From the IMG/VR virus record IMGVR_UViG_2724679140_000013: 37,432 bases of DNA; one strand, given 5' to 3'. Below are positions 1 through 37,432 of the stretch, piece after piece; positions within the stretch are counted from its first letter, which is position 1; every line of letters begins with the position of its first letter. A program made the position numbers and the translations under genes. Below the pieces are notes generated by a model that searched no databases, was not told where the DNA came from, and worked only from the letters and a program-made list of their open reading frames with translations. The DNA is from a virus. Its lineage: Duplodnaviria > Heunggongvirae > Uroviricota > Caudoviricetes.

Positions 1-1002
1 TTACCCTCTATTGTCAAAAGGGTTCAATTCAACAGCAGCCTCTAAATGACCTGGAGCAAAATGCGCATAACGCATAGTCATTTTTATATCGCTATGCCCC
101 AGTATTTTTTGCAACACAAGAATATTTCCGCCCCGCATCATAAAATGACTGGCAAACGTGTGACGTAGCACATGAGTTAATTGCCCATCAGGAAGCTCGA
201 TCTTCGCTCTCTTAATTGCAGCGTCAAAAGCCTCATAACATGGTGAAAATAGCGCTCCTCGTTTTTTAGGAAGCATAGCCTGCAATTGAGGTGAAATCGG
301 TACAGTGCGGTTCTTCTTTCCTTTAGTTTTGACAAATGTGATTCGACCGGGCAGTACTTGAGATTGTTTTAATCCTTCTGCTTCACTCCACCGAGCACCA
401 GTCGCAAGCCCAATACGAACAACAACCCCCAAATCTTTATTCCGTGACTCATCACACGCAATCAGAAGGCGTTCAATCTCATCTACATACAGAAACGCCA
501 GTTCCTTTTCTTCCTCACGAAACTTGCGAATACCAGTCAGGGGGTTTTCACCAGACCACTCTCCAAGGCGCTTCAGTTCGGCAAAAACAGCATGTAGATA
601 TGACTGCTCACGATTAACAGTTGCTTCACTAAGTTTCTTCTTCCCCTTTGGATTCCATTCACCTGATAATCGCCGCTCCCTGTAGGTGGCAAACATATTT
701 TTATCAAATTGAGAAGCAAACGGATCACCTAACCTAGAACAAATCGCCTCGAGTTTAGCCCTTCGCTCTTCACCGGAAGACAGTGTTTTACCGTACATAT
801 CAAACCAGCGAGCAACCAACTCGGAAAGGTGGGGGCCAGAATCATCCTGAAACTCGCTCCCCAAATTACTATTCATTAAACGGCGCTCATAAGAGAGCGC
901 CTCACCCTTAGTCGCAAACTGTTTACGAATACGCTTTCCCGATGCTCCATACGGGTAACACTCGCAAAGCCATTTACCAGTAGGTAGTCTTCGAACACTC
1001 AT
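1..1002 (-). CDS. int: tyrosine recombinase / phage integrase
   Basis: 333 aa; C-terminal catalytic region with HVLRHTFAS...LGHSDIKMTMRYAH (R-H-R-Y integrase signature); ATG at 1002, stop at 1-3. Confidence 0.9.
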   Translation of the reverse strand: MSVRRLPTGKWLCECYPYGASGKRIRKQFATKGEALSYERRLMNSNLGSEFQDDSGPHLSELVARWFDMYGKTLSSGEERRAKLEAICSRLGDPFASQFDKNMFATYRERRLSGEWNPKGKKKLSEATVNREQSYLHAVFAELKRLGEWSGENPLTGIRKFREEEKELAFLYVDEIERLLIACDESRNKDLGVVVRIGLATGARWSEAEGLKQSQVLPGRITFVKTKGKKNRTVPISPQLQAMLPKKRGALFSPCYEAFDAAIKRAKIELPDGQLTHVLRHTFASHFMMRGGNILVLQKILGHSDIKMTMRYAHFAPGHLEAAVELNPFDNRG

Positions 1003-1007
1003 TCTAA

Positions 1008-1394
1008 TTAAGACTTAATCCATCCCATCATCAACATCAGAGATACCGCCGTATTAGAAACAGACTGATTTTGATATACTTTTCTATTCTTTTTTTTATC
1101 TGCGAAAGGCTCAAAGGCCATATCAAGTTGTTTAGTCAATTCCTCTGCCAACAATTTGAGGTCATCCATATTTTTAACTTGTGTAGACAATTCTGGTGTA
1201 AGTCTTCCTTGATTATAAAGTACAGCTATAAAGTCAGCCGAGGTAGCCAATTTGTTTTTATAAGATGCCTTTTGCCACTCAAGGGCGTTTGCCTTATGTA
1301 ATGTTCCACCTTCATACCATTCAGAGGCATAACCATGAGATGCAAAAACAAACAAGATATAAAAAAGGACTAATTTTAAATAATTACGCTGCAT
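1008..1394 (-). CDS. hypothetical secreted protein (N-terminal signal peptide), low-GC cargo
   Basis: 128 aa; hydrophobic N-terminus LKLVLFYILFVFASHGYA then polar mature region; AAGGA SD before ATG at 1394; AT-rich compared with phage core. Confidence 0.6.
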   Translation of the reverse strand: MQRNYLKLVLFYILFVFASHGYASEWYEGGTLHKANALEWQKASYKNKLATSADFIAVLYNQGRLTPELSTQVKNMDDLKLLAEELTKQLDMAFEPFADKKKNRKVYQNQSVSNTAVSLMLMMGWIKS

Positions 1395-1425
1395 ATCATA
1401 TTTCCTTGCATGTTATTTAACGTAT

Positions 1426-2073
1426 TTACACAAAATAAATTAAAAATGTAATCACCATACCCAAAATGAGTCCAACAATGAACACAATCAAAAATTCTTT
1501 AGTATATTCTGTTAATAGTTCACTAATGCAGTGTCTATTTTTAATATTGCCATTGCTCTGAGATATATTTTTATTAGTCTGCTGATCTAACCACGACAAT
1601 GCAGATTGCAACTGAGAACGAGTAAGATCGTTTAAACGGCCTGTACCGAAATTGATATGGCAATATCGAAGAAGTTTTTGTCTAATTTCATTACTTTCAC
1701 TGTTGCGAAGAAGGAGGCTTACAAGTAATTTACAGGCGTCATGATCCTTGTGTCGGTCAAGCATCGCATTGAGAAAGCTAATTGCGGTTGGATACTGATT
1801 CACCGTCATCTTATCGACACTATCAACACCGATTTCAGCATGAAGTTTACGCCAAACAACAAACGATTCTTCCTTGCTGGCATCAACAATCTTGTCAACC
1901 AACAACTTCAGTTGATGTCGCTGAGCCTTAACTAATGGGCGCTCATCAGGCCTACCAGAAGGGATTGCAATATTGACTGTATGCCGATCATCATATCGCT
2001 CTATCTGAATATTCTTTTCGTGGTAATCACGCCCAGCAACGCGATTGTCTGAACCGTTTGAGTTGACCGCCAT
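1426..2073 (-). CDS. hypothetical C-terminally membrane-anchored protein, co-transcribed with repressor
   Basis: 215 aa; single C-terminal TM helix FLIVFIVGLILGMVITFLIYFV; GGAGGTGA SD 6 nt upstream of ATG at 2073, immediately after repressor stop at 2092-2094; low GC. Confidence 0.6.
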   Translation of the reverse strand: MAVNSNGSDNRVAGRDYHEKNIQIERYDDRHTVNIAIPSGRPDERPLVKAQRHQLKLLVDKIVDASKEESFVVWRKLHAEIGVDSVDKMTVNQYPTAISFLNAMLDRHKDHDACKLLVSLLLRNSESNEIRQKLLRYCHINFGTGRLNDLTRSQLQSALSWLDQQTNKNISQSNGNIKNRHCISELLTEYTKEFLIVFIVGLILGMVITFLIYFV

Positions 2074-2091
2074 GTCACCTCCCTGCTAGAG

Positions 2092-2505
2092 CTAACCCTT
2101 AGTTTCGTTATAGTCACGACCAGCAATACGATGGCCCTTGCCAGAAGCTCTTATTGTACCTGGAGCCAAACTACCAGCGGTCAAGGCTGCCAAAGCCGCC
2201 GCCTTAACAGCCAAAGGTGCAGAGCGATATATTTTAATTAGCTCAATCTCATCTTCAGTGGCATTAGGGATGCCATGTGCACGACTACCAGAAAGTATGT
2301 AATAGACATCTACTCCGCAGCGCCTTCCCAAGAGATTCAGCATAGCTGCATCCGGTGTAGTCACCCCTCTTTCATACTTCCCCCAAGTCTTTGTAGAAAC
2401 TTCAAAAATAGACGCCATATCATCCTGAGTCATGCCAGTTTTCTCTCGTTCCTCCCGTAATCGACGTCCAATAATGACACTTAATTCCTCTTTTTCTGTT
2501 GACAT
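2092..2505 (-). CDS. HTH (XRE-family) immunity repressor, C/CI-like
   Basis: 137 aa; HTH segment GMTQDDMASIFEVSTKTWGKYERG; divergent from the early operon; sits between int and early genes as in P2. Confidence 0.8.
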   Translation of the reverse strand: MSTEKEELSVIIGRRLREEREKTGMTQDDMASIFEVSTKTWGKYERGVTTPDAAMLNLLGRRCGVDVYYILSGSRAHGIPNATEDEIELIKIYRSAPLAVKAAALAALTAGSLAPGTIRASGKGHRIAGRDYNETKG

Positions 2506-2564
2506 AGGAAGTTTTGTTCCCTAAAGTAATTTCACGTGCAATTAGATGATCACAATGTACCACT
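2506..2564. promoter_or_regulatory. divergent lysogenic/early promoter-operator switch region (Pc/Pe equivalent)
   Basis: 59-bp gap between divergently oriented repressor and first early gene; contains repeated tcacgtg / tcacaatg elements; position-based inference. Confidence 0.45.
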
Positions 2565-2771
2565 ATGAATCAAGTTAGTCACGACACCAAGTCACGCATT
2601 CCGCGTAATACCGCCACAGGTCCAAGACTGGCACTTAGGCTGTCCCTCGAGGAGCGAGCCATCATTGATGAAATGGCCGCCAAAGAACAACGCTCATCCT
2701 CTAACATGGCGCGCATGATCTTCCTTCGAGGCCTGGAGCTGACCCAGAAAGAACAAAACAAATCTTCCTGA
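2565..2771 (+). CDS. small early protein at the cox/apl position, possible ribbon-helix-helix DNA binder
   Basis: 68 aa; first gene of rightward early operon; segment LALRLSLEERAIIDEMAAKEQ resembles RHH fold pattern; assignment by position. Confidence 0.5.
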   Translation: MNQVSHDTKSRIPRNTATGPRLALRLSLEERAIIDEMAAKEQRSSSNMARMIFLRGLELTQKEQNKSS

Positions 2772-2787
2772 TCAGGAGGTTAGTGGG

Positions 2788-2991
2788 ATGTCAGGTATAA
2801 CCATCAATATCAATGTGAATGCCCCCTATGTATCCCTGCAGAAATATGCAGAGATAACAGGTATCCCTCTTAATACATGCAAAAAGATGTTGGCTGACGG
2901 TCGAATTATTATCCGACCAAAACGCGCCAAAATGGAAAAGCCAGAAGTAAACCTTGTGGCAATGCTGAAAGACGCTATCGCTAACAGTTAA
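2788..2991 (+). CDS. small early protein with HTH-like segment
   Basis: 67 aa; GGAGG SD upstream of ATG; YAEITGIPLNTCKKMLADGRI resembles an HTH. Confidence 0.5.
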   Translation: MSGITININVNAPYVSLQKYAEITGIPLNTCKKMLADGRIIIRPKRAKMEKPEVNLVAMLKDAIANS

Positions 2992-2997
2992 AACAAC

Positions 2998-3360
2998 ATG
3001 AGCATCGCTATGAATAGAAATGCCACCTCCTCACGTTCTAAATACCGCAACGGGGCGGAACGCCATGCTAACCGTTTCGCTACCAGTGCATCACGCAGCA
3101 GCTCTCGCTACAGCCTGAGCGAAACACACGCAACACCGGATGGCCACGCTGTAAAACAAATCGGCGAGCATGCCTGGCTGATTGAGAAAGCTGGAATCGT
3201 GGTCCATAAATGCCCACGCAATCCGTTTACCGGAAACCGCATTTTTGCATTGAGCTGCGGCGACAATCAATTCGGGCAGGATTTCACATTATACGAAGCA
3301 CTTCGTACGGTTGATCGTCTGCTTCGCGGGCAAAGTTTTATTAAACAGGCTGATTTATAA
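2998..3360 (+). CDS. hypothetical early protein
   Basis: 120-aa ORF, tightly packed in early operon; start uncertain. Confidence 0.45.
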   Translation: MSIAMNRNATSSRSKYRNGAERHANRFATSASRSSSRYSLSETHATPDGHAVKQIGEHAWLIEKAGIVVHKCPRNPFTGNRIFALSCGDNQFGQDFTLYEALRTVDRLLRGQSFIKQADL

Positions 3361-3370
3361 CAGGTGAGTT

Positions 3371-3658
3371 ATGACCAAAGAGCATACACAAAGTGTATTT
3401 ATCCGTTTTATTGATTTTCGCGGTGAACTGTTATTACGCGCATCCGCTATTGATGGAGTGGCTCCGGCGGGTAAAAACGGAGCCGACGAAGCCACTTACG
3501 TTTATCTGAACGGCACGCGACTGCTTGTGGAACTTCCGTACCAGACCGTACGAGAAATCATTAGTGGAGCTGAAAAGGCACGCCAGGCTAATGGCGATGA
3601 ACCTTATATCGAAATTATTTGTATGGATTCAGAAGCAGAAATTCAGAAAGCAGATTAA
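3371..3658 (+). CDS. hypothetical early protein
   Basis: 95-aa ORF in early operon. Confidence 0.5.
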   Translation: MTKEHTQSVFIRFIDFRGELLLRASAIDGVAPAGKNGADEATYVYLNGTRLLVELPYQTVREIISGAEKARQANGDEPYIEIICMDSEAEIQKAD

Positions 3659-3669
3659 AGGGCGTTGCG

Positions 3670-3912
3670 ATGGGCAAAGAATATAAAACTCTCATTAACA
3701 AAGCACTTGAGCGTTTTTATTTTCGCTTAAGTGCATCAGGCGCTCATGCTGAACGTGCAGCCCGTGACTCATTGACCAGGGCAATCCGGAGTCTGTATGA
3801 CGTGGCTTTTTACGCTGATGATCTGGATGCACTTAACGAACTTTCCGAGCTGATCTGTGCCGCAGAATGCGGGGAACATATTGAACCGTATAAGCTGGGG
3901 AATATTGCATGA
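3670..3912 (+). CDS. hypothetical early protein
   Basis: 80 aa from ATG at 3670 (in-frame upstream ATG at 3619 overlaps previous gene). Confidence 0.45.
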   Translation: MGKEYKTLINKALERFYFRLSASGAHAERAARDSLTRAIRSLYDVAFYADDLDALNELSELICAAECGEHIEPYKLGNIA

Positions 3913-4022
3913 GTATATTTATCTCATGGCTTGTTCTGATTATTTCGGTGGCCTGCGCCATTGGGATTATGCGAATTATTCATTCAGTAAAAAAGATTGA
4001 ACGCTTTTTCACTGGCGAATAA
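3909..4022 (+). CDS. possible 37-aa single-TM membrane peptide
   Basis: ATG at 3909 overlaps upstream stop (ATGA coupling); translation MSIFISWLVLIISVACAIGIMRIIHSVKKIERFFTGE; below ORF-track size cutoff. Confidence 0.3.
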   Translation: MSIFISWLVLIISVACAIGIMRIIHSVKKIERFFTGE

Positions 4023-4108
4023 CAGAGCAAATAAAACCACAGGTTAAATAAGAAAATGTAAAAACAATCCGCATTCGCGGAGGTATTCGCACACGCCAAG
4101 GAGGCGTA

Positions 4109-4312
4109 ATGGCAATTAAGCATTTTCCTGTCGTTCGTTTTACCTCCAGAGGACGTGAATACGAAGTCGACGAACGCCTGATTACCACAATCGACAAACA
4201 CCGTTCAGAAAAGGATGCACATCACATCTATCTCACTGACGGCACTTACTTCTGCGCCACGAATGTGGTGCGGGTGAACCTTATCCGACAGGTACAGGAG
4301 TCACGCAGATGA
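4109..4312 (+). CDS. hypothetical early protein
   Basis: 67 aa; strong AAGGAGG SD upstream of ATG. Confidence 0.5.
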   Translation: MAIKHFPVVRFTSRGREYEVDERLITTIDKHRSEKDAHHIYLTDGTYFCATNVVRVNLIRQVQESRR

Positions 4313-32322: not shown

Positions 32323-32479
32323 AGCTTCAGCCCCTTGTATCCGTTAAATGATTAGGCAACAATCATCACCCACCACGCGCGTAATCTCACCCCTGCGCCA
32401 TTCTCCCGCCACGGCGACAACAAAAAGCAGTAACCCCCTCCGCACGCACATGCGACCATGCCGCACAGGGAGGGAACAG
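32323..32479. promoter_or_regulatory. divergent intergenic region between FI (minus) and D (plus); expected late promoters
   Basis: 157-bp gap between divergently oriented late genes; no clear Ogr-type dyad recognised. Confidence 0.3.
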
Positions 32480-33589
32480 ATGACCGACACCACCATGCAA
32501 TTGCTCAGTCAGGGCACAGACCCTGTAAAAATGCCGGATTTTGATATTCTCGCGGAGGGTAAAACGCTGTCAGGCGTGGCAGAGCGCCTGATGAGCCTGT
32601 CACTGACCGACAACCGTGGATTTGAGGCGGACCAGCTCACCATCACGCTGGATGATGCGGATGGTCAGTTGCAGCTACCGCCACGGGGCGCGCGCCTGAC
32701 GGTTCTCATTGGCTGGAAAGGAGAACCGCTGACAGAAAAAGGCACTTACATTGTTGATGAAATCGCTCACGAAGGACCGCCGGACAGGCTGACTGTTTCA
32801 GCCAGAAGCGCAGATTTTCGGGATGAATTTAACGTTAAACGTGAGGTGTCCTGGCATGATGTGACCGTTGAGCGTGTGGTATCCGCCATCGCTCATCGGT
32901 ACGGTCTGAAACCACAAATCAGCGAAATACTGATGGATATTGAAATCGACCACGCCGACCAGACCGAAGAAAGCGACATGTCCTTCCTTACGCGCATGGC
33001 GGAAATGCTGGGCGCAATCACCACGGTAAAAAGCGGTAATCTGTTATTCATCATGCCTGGCGGTGGCGTGAACGCACAGGGCCAGCCGTTGCCCTCATTC
33101 GCCATCACACGCAGCAGTGGCGATCGCCATCAGTTCCGCATTGCTGACCGCGAAGCGTATACGGGGGTACGCGCTTACTGGCTTGATCTTAATTACGGGA
33201 AAAAGAAAAAAGTCAGCGTGAAACGCCGCAAACCGCCAAAACCCAAAAAGGAGAAAAGCAGCAGCCGTGAAGGTGATTATATGGAAGGCGCGGAAGGCAA
33301 TGTGTTTGTGTTACGCAAGACTTATCAGAACGAGCAGGCAGCAAGACGCGCAGCGGCGGCGAAGTGGCAGCAGCTACAACGCGGAGCCGCATCATTCTCC
33401 ATCACGCTGGCACGTGGACGAGCAGAACTCTACCCCGAAATGCATGGCACGGTAACAGGATTTAAAAGCGAGATTGATAATCAGGACTGGATTATTGCAA
33501 AAGCCGAGCACACCATTGATAACAGTGGTTTTACCACACAGCTTGAGCTTGAAGCAAAAATCCCGGAATGGATAGCAGAAACAGAGTGA
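32480..33589 (+). CDS. D: tail protein D (P2 gpD family, late control D)
   Basis: 369 aa from ATG at 32480 (GGGAGGG SD); typical gpD features including basic KKKKVSVKRRKPPKPKK patch. Confidence 0.85.
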   Translation: MTDTTMQLLSQGTDPVKMPDFDILAEGKTLSGVAERLMSLSLTDNRGFEADQLTITLDDADGQLQLPPRGARLTVLIGWKGEPLTEKGTYIVDEIAHEGPPDRLTVSARSADFRDEFNVKREVSWHDVTVERVVSAIAHRYGLKPQISEILMDIEIDHADQTEESDMSFLTRMAEMLGAITTVKSGNLLFIMPGGGVNAQGQPLPSFAITRSSGDRHQFRIADREAYTGVRAYWLDLNYGKKKKVSVKRRKPPKPKKEKSSSREGDYMEGAEGNVFVLRKTYQNEQAARRAAAAKWQQLQRGAASFSITLARGRAELYPEMHGTVTGFKSEIDNQDWIIAKAEHTIDNSGFTTQLELEAKIPEWIAETE

Positions 33590-33715: not shown

Positions 33716-34474
33716 ATGTTCAGTTTATTTTCGTTAACTGCCGGAGCAAATGTGCGCTGGCATGATTTACCTGGTAAAGGTATTCCTGTTGTTTTTATTC
33801 ATGGGCTTGGCTGTTCCTCTTCTTATGAATATCCACGGGTTGTTGCAGATCCTGCATTTGGTGGACAACGAGCGATATTGATAGATCTCCCTGGATATGG
33901 ATTCAGTGATAAGCCTAAAGGATTCGATTACAGCATATCCCATCAAGCTAAAGTTGTTATTGAAGTAGTAGAAACCTTAAATCTCTCACAGTTCCATATT
34001 TATGGTCACAGTATGGGGGGAAGTATTGCGATTGAAGTGGCCAGACAACTACATGAGAGAACAAGAAAGCTTGTGGTTTCTGAGCCTAATTTTCACTCTG
34101 GTGGAGGTACCTATAGCCGTAAGATAATAGAGAAACCAGAAGCAGAGTTTATTTCGCATATATATAATGAATTACTGGAGTGTGAAACATCCCCATGGAA
34201 AGGTGAACTCCAGAATGCAGCCCCATGGGCAATATGGCGAGGAGCCAAAAGTCTGGTTGATGGAACCACTCCATCATGGAGAGATATATTCCTTAATCTG
34301 CCCTGTTCACGTACACTAATTTTTGGCGAACAATCATTGCCAGACAATGATTTCCAGCAAATAAAAGAATCTGGAATATCTGTTGCAATAGTGCCAAACG
34401 CTGGACACTCCATGTCATGGGAAAATCCATCAGCACTGGCCTCAATTTTACATACAGAATTTTATAGAAAGTAA
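33716..34474 (+). CDS. alpha/beta-fold hydrolase (esterase/lipase-like), AT-rich cargo gene
   Basis: 252 aa; nucleophile elbow GHSMGG, N-terminal HGLG oxyanion-region motif; markedly lower GC than flanking phage genes. Confidence 0.8.
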   Translation: MFSLFSLTAGANVRWHDLPGKGIPVVFIHGLGCSSSYEYPRVVADPAFGGQRAILIDLPGYGFSDKPKGFDYSISHQAKVVIEVVETLNLSQFHIYGHSMGGSIAIEVARQLHERTRKLVVSEPNFHSGGGTYSRKIIEKPEAEFISHIYNELLECETSPWKGELQNAAPWAIWRGAKSLVDGTTPSWRDIFLNLPCSRTLIFGEQSLPDNDFQQIKESGISVAIVPNAGHSMSWENPSALASILHTEFYRK

Positions 34475-34827: not shown

Positions 34828-35088
34828 ATGTTTCGTTGTCCGCTTTGTGGCGCATCTGCCCGTATCCGCACCAGTCGTCCGGAAAATGATTCAAACACCG
34901 TGCGGCAAAAGTATTACCAGTGTAACAACCTGGAATGCGGCGTATGCTTCTCAACACTGGAAGCTTTCCATAAATTCACATCAAAACACGCCTCCGGCGT
35001 TCACTCTTCAGAAGGTATCCCGTGGCATGAGCTGCCAGCTTCACACAGGGGAAACAATCAGATGAGTTTGCCTTTACCTCAGAATTAA
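34828..35088 (+). CDS. ogr: Ogr/Delta-type zinc-finger late transcription activator
   Basis: 86 aa; MFRCPLCGASARIRTSR ... YYQCNNLECGVCF (CxxC...CxxC) closely resembles P2 Ogr; AAGGGAGG SD. Confidence 0.85.
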   Translation: MFRCPLCGASARIRTSRPENDSNTVRQKYYQCNNLECGVCFSTLEAFHKFTSKHASGVHSSEGIPWHELPASHRGNNQMSLPLPQN

Positions 35089-36429: not shown

Positions 36430-36516
36430 TGGTACCCGGAGCGGGACTTGAACCCGCACAGCGCGAACGCCGAGGGATTTTAAATCCCTTGTGTCTACCG
36501 ATTCCACCATCCGGGC
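36430..36516 (-). tRNA. leuZ: tRNA-Leu (anticodon UAA)
   Basis: 87 nt; reverse complement reads GCCCGGATGGTGGAATCGGTAGACACAAGGGATTTAAAATCCC...GGGTACCA with anticodon loop TTTAAAA. Confidence 0.95.
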
Positions 36517-36528
36517 TCGGGAAGAAAG

Positions 36529-36602
36529 TGGAGGCGCGTTCCGGAGTCGAACCGGACTAGACGGATTTGCAATCCGCTACATAACCGCTTTGTTAACGCG
36601 CC
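36529..36602 (-). tRNA. cysT: tRNA-Cys (anticodon GCA)
   Basis: 74 nt; reverse complement GGCGCGTTAACAAAGCGGTTATGTAGCGGATTGCAAATCCGTC...CTCCA. Confidence 0.95.
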
Positions 36603-36656
36603 AAATTCTTCAGGCCTTTCAGCCAGACATCCGCTTGACGCCGATGTCTTTTAAAC

Positions 36657-36732
<76 letters not shown>

Positions 36733-36883: not shown

Positions 36884-37432
36884 TCACTGATCAAGCAAAT
36901 CTGCACGCGCAGCGCTCAAATATTGCAACATTGACCACAGAGTCAGTACCGCAGCCACAAAGAAAAGTGCAATACCGGCGTACTCAACCCAAATGTTCGG
37001 ACGCCACAGCAGCCATGCCAACGCCACCATCTGGGCAGTGGTTTTCACTTTCCCAATCCAGGAGACGGCCACGCTACTGCGTTTACCCAACTCCGCCATC
37101 CATTCGCGTAGCGCAGAAATAATAATTTCACGGGCGATCATCGTTGCCGCCGGTAATGTCACCCACCAGCTGTGATAATGCTCGGTTACCAGCACCATGG
37201 CGATAGCCACGAGAACTTTATCTGCCACAGGGTCAAGGAAAGCACCAAACCGGGTACTCTGGTTCCAGCGGCGTGCCAGAAAACCATCGAACCAGTCAGT
37301 CACCGCCGCGACGCAGAAAATGAGCGCGGCGGCAAACGGCGACCAGGTGACAGGCAGATAAAAGACCAATACAAAGAATGGGATAAGGATGACACGGAAC
37401 AGTGTAAGCAACGTAGGGATATTAAATTGCAT
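36884..37432 (-). CDS. pgsA: CDP-diacylglycerol--glycerol-3-phosphate 3-phosphatidyltransferase
   Basis: 182 aa complete ORF starting at last codon of window; CDP-alcohol phosphotransferase motif DWFDGFLAR...[10 protein letters not shown]; 151-bp spacing to glyW matches my recollection of E. coli K-12. Confidence 0.95.

What the first reader, a model, noticed from the sequence alone, without database searches (positions are those of the whole stretch)
1008..2505. Low-GC cargo pair (membrane-anchored protein plus secreted protein) embedded in the repressor-integrase lysogeny operon
Between the C-type repressor and int, where P2 has no such genes, sit a 215-aa protein with one C-terminal TM anchor and a 128-aa signal-peptide protein. 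Both are AT-rich and have good SDs, and the first is translationally adjacent to the repressor stop. Genes co-transcribed with the repressor are expressed in the lysogen, the classic location for superinfection-exclusion, abortive-infection or lysogenic-conversion functions.
Basis: partly seen in the sequence, partly recalled or inferred. Interest (0 to 1): 0.6.

Follow-up and report, generated by a model that had tools for sequence, protein, structure and literature searches.

The report
Prophage repressor's membrane partner plus moron
The gene after this prophage's repressor encodes a membrane-anchored protein whose first ~20 residues copy the repressor's last ~20, a matched pair seen in many phages that probably ties the lysogeny switch to the cell membrane; the second gene is an ordinary swappable periplasmic accessory gene.

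Summary
The sequence features are real. On the minus strand lie a repressor (2092-2505), a 215-aa tail-anchored protein (1426-2073), a 128-aa signal-peptide protein (1008-1394) and int (1-1002). They are tightly packed and low in GC.

The two "cargo" genes are different things. ORF128 is true cargo. It sits in a slot where related prophages carry unrelated genes, and it has a small periplasmic HdeA/YmgD/Tai4-like helical fold of unknown function.

ORF215 is not cargo. It carries one cytoplasmic Flk_N domain and a C-terminal membrane anchor. In every P2-like prophage examined it follows the repressor, including in 516 of 5,426 complete E. coli genomes.

The repressor is an XRE-type HTH protein, not P2 C. 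Its C-terminal tail (IRASGKGHRIAGRDYNE) repeats the N-terminal head of ORF215 (VNSNGSDNRVAGRDYHE). Across 39 distinct loci the tail and head match within each locus. Lineages with a different motif (Q.FHG.VGQ..GD) have it in both partners.

In metagenomes the motif occurs only as an HTH-protein tail or as the head of the next protein. That next protein is Flk_N-type or a zinc-ribbon membrane protein.

Inferred, not shown: the tail and head pair physically, coupling the repressor to a membrane-anchored regulator. The layout resembles amyloid-signalling gene pairs.

The parts
2092..2505 (-). Prophage repressor, 137 aa, XRE-family HTH (not a P2 C homologue)
   Evidence: Pfam HTH_31 E 2.5e-10 and PHROG transcriptional repressor families. 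Only 29% identity over 38 aa with P88 C.
2299..2472 (-). HTH DNA-binding domain of the repressor (residues 12-69)
   Evidence: Pfam HTH_31 / HTH_19 / HTH_3 matches; coordinates. This part differs between prophages that keep the same tail.
2173..2250 (-). Conserved helix of the repressor, EIELIKIYRSAPLAVKAAALAALTAG (residues 86-111), preceding the tail
   Evidence: Present in all tail-bearing repressors of Enterobacterales, with variants in high-GC lineages.
2104..2154 (-). Repressor C-terminal tail motif IRASGKGHRIAGRDYNE (residues 118-134 of 137)
   Evidence: Aligns with the ORF215 head. Within-locus tail-head alignment scores average 53.6, against 19.4 +/- 4.2 for shuffled tails, over 39 distinct loci. 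46 of 89 metagenomic occurrences of the motif are such tails.
1426..2073 (-). ORF215: tail-anchored inner-membrane protein with one cytoplasmic Flk_N domain; conserved partner of the repressor
   Evidence: phrog_5825 E 6.8e-86. NCBIfam Flk E 1.5e-14, below the family cutoff. PF27202 Flk_N recorded for its cluster. AF2 model pLDDT 76.7.
1957..2067 (-). ORF215 N-terminal head (residues 3-39). The core VNSNGSDNRVAGRDYHE (2017-2067) repeats the repressor tail. Disordered in the monomer model.
   Evidence: G7, N10, R11, D16 and E19 are invariant in 51 orthologues. pLDDT is 44-54 for residues 1-40. 8 of 17 aligned residues are identical to the tail, 5 of them through different codons.
1558..1953 (-). 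Flk_N helical domain (residues 41-172)
1438..1494 (-). C-terminal transmembrane anchor (residues 194-212), within the low-GC variable end of ORF215
   Evidence: Kyte-Doolittle 3.11 and GC 26.5% for aa 173-215. Similarity to other E. coli prophages stops near window position 1577.
1008..1394 (-). ORF128: exported small helical protein in a swappable accessory (moron) slot
1326..1394 (-). Signal peptide of ORF128 (residues 1-23, predicted cleavage after GYA)
   Evidence: Read directly from the sequence. Equivalent N-terminal export or anchor signals occur in homologues.
1..1002 (-). Tyrosine integrase, last gene of the operon
   Evidence: Pfam Int_N E 3.9e-32 and Phage_integrase E 2.7e-22.

Best explanation
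The window carries a P88-like (Xuanwuvirus, P2-family) prophage inserted beside yecA. Its lysogeny operon reads: XRE repressor, Flk_N membrane protein, variable accessory gene, integrase.

ORF215 is the repressor's dedicated membrane partner. It is anchored in the inner membrane by its last ~20 residues. By analogy with Flk it faces the cytoplasm. It presents a disordered, G/N-rich N-terminal head that has the same sequence motif as the repressor's C-terminal tail.

Inferred mechanism: head and tail pair homotypically, by beta-strand pairing or possibly by nucleated, amyloid-like templating as in Bab/Agp-type gene pairs. The pool of active repressor is thereby coupled to a membrane-anchored regulator.

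My preferred direction: the membrane protein is the sensing side and the repressor the controlled side. A membrane or envelope cue would capture or inactivate the repressor and give SOS-independent derepression.

ORF128 is separate. It is an exported HdeA/Tai4-like small helical protein in the moron slot, most likely a periplasmic binding or protective factor expressed in the lysogen.

Shown: gene order, domain content, motif identity, co-variation, and restriction of the motif to tails and heads.
Inferred: physical pairing, direction of signalling, the trigger, and the role of ORF128.
For: 1. Linkage. The Flk_N gene lies downstream of the repressor in E. coli, Klebsiella, Erwinia, Kosakonia, Rosenbergiella, Izhakiella, Mixta, Enterobacter, Serratia, Pectobacterium and Symbiopectobacterium prophages, directly after it except in one Erwinia locus (L009) where a YebY-like gene intervenes. 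It is present in 516 of 5,426 complete E. coli genomes. The repressor's HTH part and the downstream gene both vary.

2. Matched termini. Over 39 distinct loci the tail-head Smith-Waterman score averages 53.6 (minimum 36). Shuffled tails give 19.4 +/- 4.2 (maximum 45 in 7,800 trials).

3. Co-variation. Two major motif types exist: G..NR.AGRD[YF].E and Q.FHG.VGQ..GD.NN.G. Each is always present on both partners. Type-A tail against type-A head scores 60.5; against other heads 16-22.

4. Not gene conversion. In the window, 5 of the 8 identical residues use different codons.

5. Positional exclusivity. An unbiased pattern scan of metagenomes found 89 in-frame motif copies. 46 are C-terminal tails of HTH-type proteins, 42 are N-terminal heads of another protein, and the remaining one starts at residue 28, probably because of a mis-called start codon.

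6. The membrane anchor is the constant, not the Flk_N domain. 14 head-bearing proteins lack Flk_N. Of the 7 distinct ones I read in full, 6 are zinc-ribbon or linker proteins with TM segments; the seventh (L098, 94 aa) has a zinc ribbon but no clear TM. Where both motif copies were caught (L078, L106, L108, L111, L121), the head protein follows a tail-bearing repressor. Some of these loci are in Mu-like phages.

7. Some Flk_N relatives are bitopic, with a periplasmic C-terminal domain. That architecture fits sensing.

8. Motif properties resemble those reported for bacterial amyloid-signalling motifs (10.1101/2020.01.06.895854, section 9). They are about 20-28 aa long. G+N+Q+V+I makes up 41-57% of the motifs against 26-28% of the rest of the proteins, and K+P+L 5-8% against 18-21%. 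The head is disordered in the AF2 monomer.

9. An E. coli precedent exists for adjacent prophage genes that share a C-terminal/N-terminal motif and signal through it: Bab/Agp (10.1101/2024.11.07.622273).

10. Flk itself is a C-terminally anchored, cytoplasm-facing regulator that acts by protein-protein contact; it binds FlhA-C in a two-hybrid assay (PMC13344023).

11. The repressor has no peptidase domain.

For ORF128.
Against: - No interaction was tested. I had no complex prediction or experiment.
- The enterobacterial motif is rich in R, D and E, which is less typical of amyloid motifs.
- Partner polarity differs from classical BASS pairs. Here the membrane protein carries the N-terminal copy, and there is no NLR-type receptor.
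- Both proteins come from one operon. A constitutive antirepressor would be self-defeating, so latency has to be assumed.
- One lineage (L058/L059) has an Flk_N protein with an N-terminal extension and a repressor without the tail.
- Co-variation rests mainly on two major motif types. The sub-types cross-score highly.
- The direction of signalling and the trigger are guesses.
Confidence: 0.55

Rival explanations
1. Rex-like abortive infection or exclusion, with signalling in the opposite direction. The repressor, or a repressor-containing complex disturbed by a superinfecting phage, is the sensor. Its tail nucleates the head of the membrane protein. The membrane anchors then oligomerise and depolarise or permeabilise the membrane. 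ORF128 adds a periplasmic exclusion function. This is closest to the first reader's idea.
For: The genes lie in the repressor operon and so would be expressed in the lysogen. The non-Flk_N partners are small zinc-ribbon proteins with two TM segments, which look like membrane effectors. Bab/Agp is an amyloid-triggered abortive-infection pair found in E. coli prophage hotspots (10.1101/2024.11.07.622273). Lambda cI-rexA-rexB is a layout precedent (10.1101/2021.04.19.439022). ORF128 relatives sit next to TIR_2, AbiJ-like and AAA_15 genes.
Against: There are no PADLOC hits. The Flk_N domain is strongly conserved over its whole length (45 invariant columns). That fits a specific protein contact better than a simple pore-former. 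A single C-terminal anchor followed by 3 residues is a poor pore candidate. Nothing indicates how a DNA-bound repressor would sense infection.
Confidence: 0.2
2. Common third-party recognition. The tail and head do not bind each other. Both are recognised by the same host factor, for example a protease or adaptor such as FtsH, ClpXP or Lon. ORF215 would then act as a membrane-located decoy or adaptor that sets repressor stability.
For: The same motif lies at exposed, disordered termini of both proteins. From memory, not checked here: the C-terminal tail of the Mu repressor controls its ClpXP-dependent degradation. Some tail-head pairs found here lie in Mu-like phages.
Against: Two quite different motif types exist, and each is always present on both partners. 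Homotypic pairing explains this directly. A shared host factor conserved from Enterobacterales to high-GC proteobacteria does not. The motif is N-terminal on one partner and C-terminal on the other, whereas terminal degrons are usually end-specific.
Confidence: 0.12
3. Flk mimic. ORF215 is a lysogenic-conversion factor that acts like host Flk on the flagellar type III export gate and alters flagellar assembly or motility. The motif shared with the repressor is incidental.
For: Sequence homology to Flk: NCBIfam E 1.5e-14 and 28-29% identity to each Flk repeat. Both have a C-terminal anchor.
Against: The score of 54 bits is far below the family cutoff of 353. ORF215 has one repeat where Flk has two. 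The family is very common in Klebsiella pneumoniae prophages (P0027 on 754 contigs), and that species is generally non-flagellate (textbook knowledge). This reading does not explain the co-varying motif, or the zinc-ribbon partners that replace Flk_N.
Confidence: 0.05
4. Evolutionary relic. The repeated motif is left over from a duplication or from the split of an ancestral single gene. It has no present function, and ORF215 is an independent membrane protein of unknown role.
For: The genes are adjacent and in the same reading frame in the window. Their ATGs are 432 nt apart, with two in-frame stop codons between them. phrog_17822 weakly matches both proteins.
Against: The motif residues are invariant in 51 orthologues and are kept through synonymous codon changes. 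The motif is retained on both partners across Enterobacterales and high-GC lineages, and with non-homologous partners. No fused HTH-Flk_N protein appeared among the 85 family clusters found in 1.84 billion representatives.
Confidence: 0.08

Closest known systems
Flk / Fluke (RflH), flagellar export-switch brake of Salmonella and E. coli
   Same: Homologous helical Flk_N domain. C-terminal membrane anchor with a cytoplasm-facing body. A regulatory role through protein-protein contact is described for Flk (PMC13344023).
   Different: ORF215 has one Flk_N repeat, Flk has two. It is 215 aa against about 333 aa. It scores 54 bits against a cutoff of 353. Flk lacks the G/N-rich head motif; its N-terminus is Pro/Gly-rich. 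ORF215 is encoded in a prophage next to a repressor, and the family also occurs in Klebsiella.
Amyloid-signalling gene pairs (BASS motifs; E. coli Bab/Agp BASS11; fungal HET-S/NWD2)
   Same: Adjacent genes in which the C-terminal end of the upstream product and the N-terminal end of the downstream product carry the same ~20-25-aa motif. The motif is G/N/Q/V/I-rich and K/P/L-poor, and motif types differ between lineages (10.1101/2020.01.06.895854; 10.1101/2024.11.07.622273). One partner is membrane-associated. Bab/Agp also lies in prophages.
   Different: There is no NLR/STAND or TPR receptor and no Bell/HeLo domain. The upstream partner is a DNA-binding repressor. The membrane protein carries the N-terminal copy. 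The enterobacterial motif is highly charged. Amyloid formation is untested.
Lambda cI-rexA-rexB operon
   Same: Genes co-transcribed with the repressor in the lysogen, including an inner-membrane protein. RexA and RexB are also reported to influence the lysis-lysogeny switch (10.1101/2021.04.19.439022; PMC11077077).
   Different: No sequence or domain similarity was detected, and there are no PADLOC hits. The Rex proteins are not known to share a terminal motif with CI.
P2 / P88 C-int lysogeny operon
   Same: Same genomic position, with repressor and int transcribed leftward beside attL. The rest of the early region is homologous to P88-like phages (DUF4761 region, 91-95% identity).
   Different: P88 has a 93-aa C-type repressor directly followed by int. 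This prophage instead has an XRE repressor with a tail, the Flk_N gene and a moron slot. It also has an Arc-like plus Cox-like gene pair on the other strand.
HdeA/HdeB, YmgD and Tai4/Rap1a small periplasmic helical proteins (for ORF128)

Membership tests
Flk (NCBIfam PRK10715, flagella biosynthesis regulator) | Whole-protein score above the curated cutoff (353 bits) | tested here: not met
   54.1 bits, E 1.5e-14, covering only residues 41-172.
Flk (NCBIfam PRK10715, flagella biosynthesis regulator) | About 333 aa with two tandem Flk_N-type repeats | tested here: not met
   ORF215 aligns separately to residues 17-144 and 144-278 of a 336-aa Flk, so it has a single repeat.
Flk (NCBIfam PRK10715, flagella biosynthesis regulator) | C-terminal membrane anchor with a cytoplasmic body | tested here: met
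   A single hydrophobic segment at residues 194-212 of 215, modelled as a helix at 191-214. Orientation is inferred from Flk (PMC13344023), not tested.
Pfam PF27202 Flk_N domain | Significant match to the domain model | tested here: met
   All 120 listed homologues carry precomputed PF27202, including the cluster of the near-identical P0001. The name Flk_N is given. The model is absent from the local Pfam copy, so the window protein was not scored directly.
PHROG 5825 / PHROG 23065 (phage families of unknown function) | Full-length profile match | tested here: met
   ORF215 matches phrog_5825 at E 6.8e-86 (residues 1-208 against profile positions 1-207 of 208). ORF128 matches phrog_23065 at E 2.3e-41.
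Amyloid-signalling (BASS-type) gene pair | Same short motif at the C-terminus of the upstream product and the N-terminus of the adjacent downstream product | tested here: met
   39 distinct loci, within-locus score 53.6 against 19.4 for shuffled tails. 88 of 89 metagenomic occurrences are terminal.
Amyloid-signalling (BASS-type) gene pair | Motif about 25 aa, enriched in G/N/Q/V/I and depleted in K/P/L | tested here: met
   G+N+Q+V+I is 41-57% in motifs against 26-28% elsewhere; K+P+L is 5-8% against 18-21%. The type-A motif is additionally rich in R, D and E.
Amyloid-signalling (BASS-type) gene pair | An NLR/STAND-type (or Agp-like) receptor carries the N-terminal motif, and a Bell/HeLo-type effector carries the C-terminal motif | tested here: not met
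   The partners are an XRE HTH repressor and an Flk_N or zinc-ribbon membrane protein.
Amyloid-signalling (BASS-type) gene pair | The motif forms amyloid fibrils or transmissible aggregates and cross-seeds its partner | not testable with these tools
   Needs peptide fibrillation, ThT binding or GFP-foci assays.
Known anti-phage defence systems (PADLOC-DB 2.0) | Match of either cargo protein to a defence-system model | tested here: not met
   No families matched ORF128 or ORF215 at E<=1. Only the HTH of the repressor matched generic models.
P2 C-type repressor | Homology to P2/P88 C protein (about 93-99 aa) | tested here: not met
   29% identity over 38 aa of the HTH only. 137 aa with Pfam HTH_31.
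HdeA/HdeB acid-stress chaperones (ORF128) | Sequence-family match | tested here: not met
   No significant Pfam or NCBIfam hit.
HdeA/HdeB acid-stress chaperones (ORF128) | Fold match | tested here: inconclusive
Tai4/Rap1a T6SS amidase immunity proteins (ORF128) | Fold match plus linkage to a cognate effector | tested here: not met

The most novel reading that the evidence does not exclude
The repressor tail and the membrane-protein head form a prion-like (amyloid-templating) switch. A membrane-anchored sensor nucleates a cross-beta fold that propagates to the repressor's tail. This collapses the repressor pool all-or-none and flips the prophage out of lysogeny (or, run in reverse, triggers a membrane effector). 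It would be a new, SOS-independent way to control a lysogeny switch, present in about 10% of complete E. coli genomes, in many Klebsiella, and in Mu-like phages.
Probability: 0.22. Interest if true: 0.92.

Novelty: new variant of a known kind. Interest (0 to 1): 0.72.

Why it matters
How P2-family prophages that lack a cleavable repressor leave lysogeny is poorly understood. This work points to a testable wiring.

A repressor carries a short terminal motif that is duplicated on a membrane-anchored partner encoded by the next gene. The arrangement is common: 516 of 5,426 complete E. coli genomes, hundreds of Klebsiella contigs, and Mu-like phages that use different membrane partners.

If the two termini pair, membrane or envelope state could feed directly into the lysis-lysogeny decision. 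Matched-motif (possibly amyloid-type) signalling would then extend from immune receptor/effector pairs to transcriptional repressors.

The finding also assigns a context to two unknown-function phage families (phrog_5825 and the Flk_N domain). It separates a conserved regulatory gene from the real moron slot, which matters for annotating prophage cargo.

Tried and rejected
- Defence-system assignment. PADLOC gave nothing for either protein.
- Fused HTH-Flk_N proteins. These were suggested by phrog_17822 matching both proteins. None appeared among the 85 clusters from 1.84 billion representatives.
- AFDB50 fold search. The library was not available.
- Isolated phages. Only the degraded record of phage 520873 carries the Flk_N gene. 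P88 and its relatives lack it.
- Internal promoter or terminator that would separate the cargo from the repressor. Nothing exceeded chance.
- Recent gene conversion as the cause of the repeat. Rejected on codon differences.
- Strict co-variation between the ORF215 C-terminal type and the downstream gene. It holds for two E. coli types but not in Rosenbergiella or Erwinia, so I did not build on it.
- Viral-contig scans with P0176, P0186 and P0225 found no loci.
- Literature searches for Xuanwuvirus, for Flk with prophage and repressor, and for amyloid signalling with repressor found no prior description in the held library.
- I did not use the third large protein search. I did not search the window exhaustively for a Tum-like antirepressor.
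Full report
**What is there.** All four ORFs lie on the minus strand.

| Gene | Coordinates | Size |
|---|---|---|
| Repressor | 2092-2505 | 137 aa |
| ORF215 | 1426-2073 | 215 aa |
| ORF128 | 1008-1394 | 128 aa |
| Integrase | 1-1002 | 333 aa |

- The gaps between them are 18, 31 and 5 nt. ORF215 has a strong SD and ORF128 a moderate one.
- No terminator or promoter signal above chance separates the genes. A single lysogenic transcript is plausible but not shown.
- GC is 51.6% for the window, 35.1% for ORF128 and 39.0% for ORF215. The drop is concentrated in the last 43 codons of ORF215, at 26.5%.
- ORF215 has one hydrophobic segment at residues 194-212. AF2 models it as a helix at 191-214.
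- ORF128 begins with a signal peptide.

**Genomic setting.**
- The window is 100% identical to a prophage next to yecA in mouse E. coli strains.
- It is related to Xuanwuvirus (P88-like, Peduoviridae) phages.
- Its right end carries gpD, an alpha/beta-hydrolase gene and ogr, followed by tRNA-Leu/Cys/Gly and pgsA.
- P88 itself has int directly followed by a 93-aa P2 C-type repressor.
- The repressor here is different. It is an XRE/HTH_31 protein, only 29% identical to P88 C over 38 residues. The label 'C-type repressor' is wrong.

**ORF128 is a moron.**
- The slot just upstream of int holds unrelated genes in related prophages. These include YebY/DUF2511-like proteins and ORFs of 87, 102, 198, 213, 244 and 288-295 aa. 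Sometimes the slot holds a decayed copy or nothing.
- The ORF128 cassette is present in only 4 of 5,426 complete E. coli genomes, all mouse isolates.
- Similarity to other E. coli prophages resumes at about window position 1577. The swapped low-GC segment is therefore ORF128 plus the C-terminal linker and anchor of ORF215.
- ORF128 belongs to a small family of 37 proteins (phrog_23065). They share an invariant EWYEGGTLHKA..W..AT..NKLATSADF motif. It sits behind a signal peptide, a lipobox, or a cytoplasmic zinc ribbon plus TM. The conserved domain is therefore extracytoplasmic.
- The AF2 model is confident (pLDDT 90.2).
- Homologues sit in accessory positions of other mobile elements. Examples are a Mu-like phage near a TIR_2 gene, a P4-like element next to an AbiJ-like gene, and an integrase/AAA_15 island.

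I read ORF128 as an exported accessory protein, possibly a periplasmic binding or protective factor. Its function is open.

**ORF215 is not cargo.**
- It matches phrog_5825 over its full length (E 6.8e-86).
- Its residues 41-172 align to Flk (NCBIfam E 1.5e-14). The score is far below the family cutoff, 54 against 353 bits.
- Its database cluster and all 120 listed homologues carry Pfam PF27202, named Flk_N.
- Flk contains two such repeats. ORF215 has one, at 28-29% identity to each.
[quoted passage not shown] It holds the flagellar export gate in early mode and binds FlhA-C in a two-hybrid assay.
- The AF2 model (pLDDT 76.7) has four parts: a disordered N-terminus (residues 1-44), a confident helical Flk_N domain, a disordered linker and the anchor helix.
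- No solved or viral predicted structure is a convincing relative.
- The family is small: 85 clusters at E<=1e-3 among 1.84 billion representatives. It splits into phage-type proteins of about 185-225 aa and true Flk proteins of about 290-370 aa.

**Linkage to the repressor.**
- The order repressor, Flk_N gene, variable gene, int is kept in P2-like prophages of many genera. These are E. coli, Klebsiella, Erwinia, Kosakonia, Rosenbergiella, Izhakiella, Mixta, Enterobacter, Serratia, Pectobacterium and Symbiopectobacterium.
- In one Erwinia locus a YebY-like gene sits between the repressor and the Flk_N gene.
- The N-terminal ~170 codons of ORF215 are found in 516 of 5,426 complete E. coli genomes.
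- The HTH part of the repressor changes between these prophages, but its C-terminal part does not.

**The key observation.**
- Every one of these repressors ends with a conserved helix and then ...I(N)VSG.GNR(V/I)AGRD(Y/F).E.KK.
- Every Flk_N protein begins M.VNS.G..NR.(A/S)GRD(F/Y).EN.IQI....
- In the window the two segments are IRASGKGHRIAGRDYNE (repressor residues 118-134) and VNSNGSDNRVAGRDYHE (ORF215 residues 3-19).
- Five of the eight identical residues use different codons. This is selection on the protein, not recent gene conversion.

**Co-variation.** More distant family members came from IMG/VR contigs.
- They carry a different motif, and it is again present on both partners.
- L025: tail GIGQQFNGPVGTVTTGDVVN, head MNQQQFHGAVEQVAAGDIKN.
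- L026: tail EQVIHGDVLGNVIKGNVTM, head KQTVNGDVGNVVSGDVTI.
- L029: tail EQIFHGSVGQVIKGD, head TQSFHGDTGVVAGGD.
- A 30-locus group has tails such as KQTFHGSVGQSVAGNVTNKSGVTFNVG and heads such as SQDFHGGVGQVAEGDINNYGININL.

| Comparison (39 distinct loci) | Smith-Waterman score |
|---|---|
| Tail against head of the same locus | mean 53.6, minimum 36 |
| Shuffled tail against own head | 19.4 +/- 4.2, maximum 45 in 7,800 trials |
| Tail against head of another motif class | mean 23.4 |
| Type-A tail against type-A head | 60.5 |
| Type-A tail against other heads | 16-22 |

The sub-types of the second class cross-score highly. Firm co-variation therefore rests on two major motif types.

**Test from the motif side.** I scanned the metagenome collection with a degenerate DNA pattern for G..NR[VI]AGRD[YF].E. 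It hit 70 contigs.
- Of 89 in-frame occurrences, 46 are C-terminal tails of ~125-240-aa HTH-type proteins.
- 42 are N-terminal heads of another protein. Where both copies fell on one contig, the head protein is the next gene after the tail-bearing one.
- The remaining one starts at residue 28, probably because of a mis-called start. None is truly internal.
- Fourteen head-bearing proteins are not Flk_N proteins. I read seven distinct ones in full. Five have a head, a CxxC...CxxC zinc ribbon and two TM segments. One has a head, a linker and TM segments. One (L098, 94 aa) has a zinc ribbon but no clear TM.
- Some of these loci lie beside a ~590-aa rve transposase and an SLT gene, which marks them as Mu-like phages.
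- The constant features are therefore a repressor tail, an identical head on a second protein, and in almost every case a membrane anchor. The middle domain is replaceable.
- Some Flk_N relatives are bitopic, with a periplasmic C-terminal domain.
- One lineage (L058/L059) is an exception. Its Flk_N protein has an N-terminal extension and its repressor has no tail.

**Interpretation.** The simplest reading is that tail and head bind each other, tying the repressor to a membrane-anchored partner.
- The layout is the one described for bacterial and fungal amyloid-signalling pairs. There too, the C-terminal motif of the upstream product equals the N-terminal motif of the downstream product, in adjacent genes.
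- Those sources are 10.1101/2020.01.06.895854 and the E. coli prophage abortive-infection pair Bab/Agp, 10.1101/2024.11.07.622273.
- The motifs here share the reported properties. They are 20-28 aa long. G+N+Q+V+I is 41-57% against 26-28% elsewhere, and K+P+L is 5-8% against 18-21%. They are disordered in the monomer model.
- The domains differ from those pairs, and amyloid formation is untested. I therefore treat this as 'works like', not as membership.

**Direction of signalling.** I favour the membrane protein as sensor and the repressor as the controlled element, giving SOS-independent derepression. My reasons are:
- the repressor has no peptidase domain;
- the gene order matches effector-then-receptor pairs;
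- some partners have periplasmic domains.

This direction is inference.

**Rivals.**
- A Rex-like abortive-infection system running the other way.
- Recognition of both termini by a common protease or adaptor.
- A Flk mimic acting on flagella. This is unlikely given the abundance in Klebsiella prophages and the replaceable Flk_N domain.
- A functionless relic. This is unlikely given conservation through synonymous changes and across non-homologous partners.

**Novelty.**
- Both gene families were already catalogued as unknown-function phage families.
- I found no description of the repressor-tail/membrane-head pairing in the held literature.
- I rate it a new variant of a known kind: matched-motif signalling pairs, now involving a prophage repressor and membrane partners.
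- ORF128 on its own is an ordinary moron.

Noticed in passing
window 33716-34474 (+): A 252-aa alpha/beta-hydrolase gene (Pfam Abhydrolase_1, E 7.5e-21) sits between the tail gene gpD (32348-33589) and ogr (34828-35088). It looks like a second moron at the other end of the prophage.
   Followed up: partly
L078:1465-1921, L106:4779-5220, L108, L111, L137, L096:8587-8958, L082, L099, L100, L121: Proteins that carry the same N-terminal head motif but no Flk_N domain. Most have a CxxC...CxxC zinc ribbon plus two TM segments. Where both motif copies were caught (L078, L106, L108, L111, L121), each follows a tail-bearing HTH repressor. L096 and L121 lie beside a ~590-aa rve transposase and an SLT gene, which marks a Mu-like phage.
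   Followed up: partly
L058:1542-2225, L059:1884-3043: An exception to the rule. The Flk_N protein has a ~35-residue helical N-terminal extension before a motif-like VKGNNANINFGTQLNF. The upstream 155-aa HTH repressor ends in a helical ...GKILKLVVNR without the tail motif.
   Followed up: no
L026:2501-3484, L027:2501-3475 and 3635-4162, L029:2501-3454: Longer Flk_N relatives (318-327 aa) have the TM segment in the middle and a periplasmic C-terminal domain. In L027 the lipoprotein encoded by the next gene appears to share that domain (...PGLDKYAA.F...).
   Followed up: no
P0202 (Flk, 336 aa) versus window 1426-2073: Host Flk consists of two tandem copies of the Flk_N unit (residues ~17-144 and ~144-278). 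Each is 28-29% identical to the single unit of ORF215.
   Followed up: yes
L001 (phage 520873, NC_049344) 2459-3065 and 1039-2039: This is the only isolated-phage record with the Flk_N gene. The gene is in three tblastn pieces and is unannotated, and the integrase is split into two CDSs. The record looks like a decayed prophage.
   Followed up: partly
window 2565-2771 (+) versus L002:5572-5709 (-): RefSeq annotates a 45-aa minus-strand hypothetical protein where the plus strand encodes a 68-aa Arc-like protein (phrog_3431, E 1.5e-27). The Arc-like ORF is not annotated in CP054662.
   Followed up: no
window 1426-1557; L063:2000-3064; L064:2501-3525: In E. coli the C-terminal linker/anchor type of the Flk_N protein travels with the downstream gene. 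The window type goes with ORF128 and the LRALELIRLYPKE... type with YebY. The association does not hold in Rosenbergiella or Erwinia.
   Followed up: partly
L061:3179-3563: A frameshifted (pseudogene) copy of ORF128 lies between the Flk_N gene and int in another E. coli prophage. In L003 the same slot is an unannotated ~490-bp gap.
   Followed up: partly
L009:3636-3977: In an Erwinia pyrifoliae prophage a YebY/DUF2511-like exported protein gene is inserted between the tail-bearing repressor gene and the Flk_N gene. Strict adjacency of the pair is therefore not obligatory.
   Followed up: no
window 36430-36732 and 36884-37432: tRNA-Leu(taa), tRNA-Cys(gca), tRNA-Gly(gcc) and pgsA flank the right end of the prophage. 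In RefSeq, yecA flanks the int end.
   Followed up: partly
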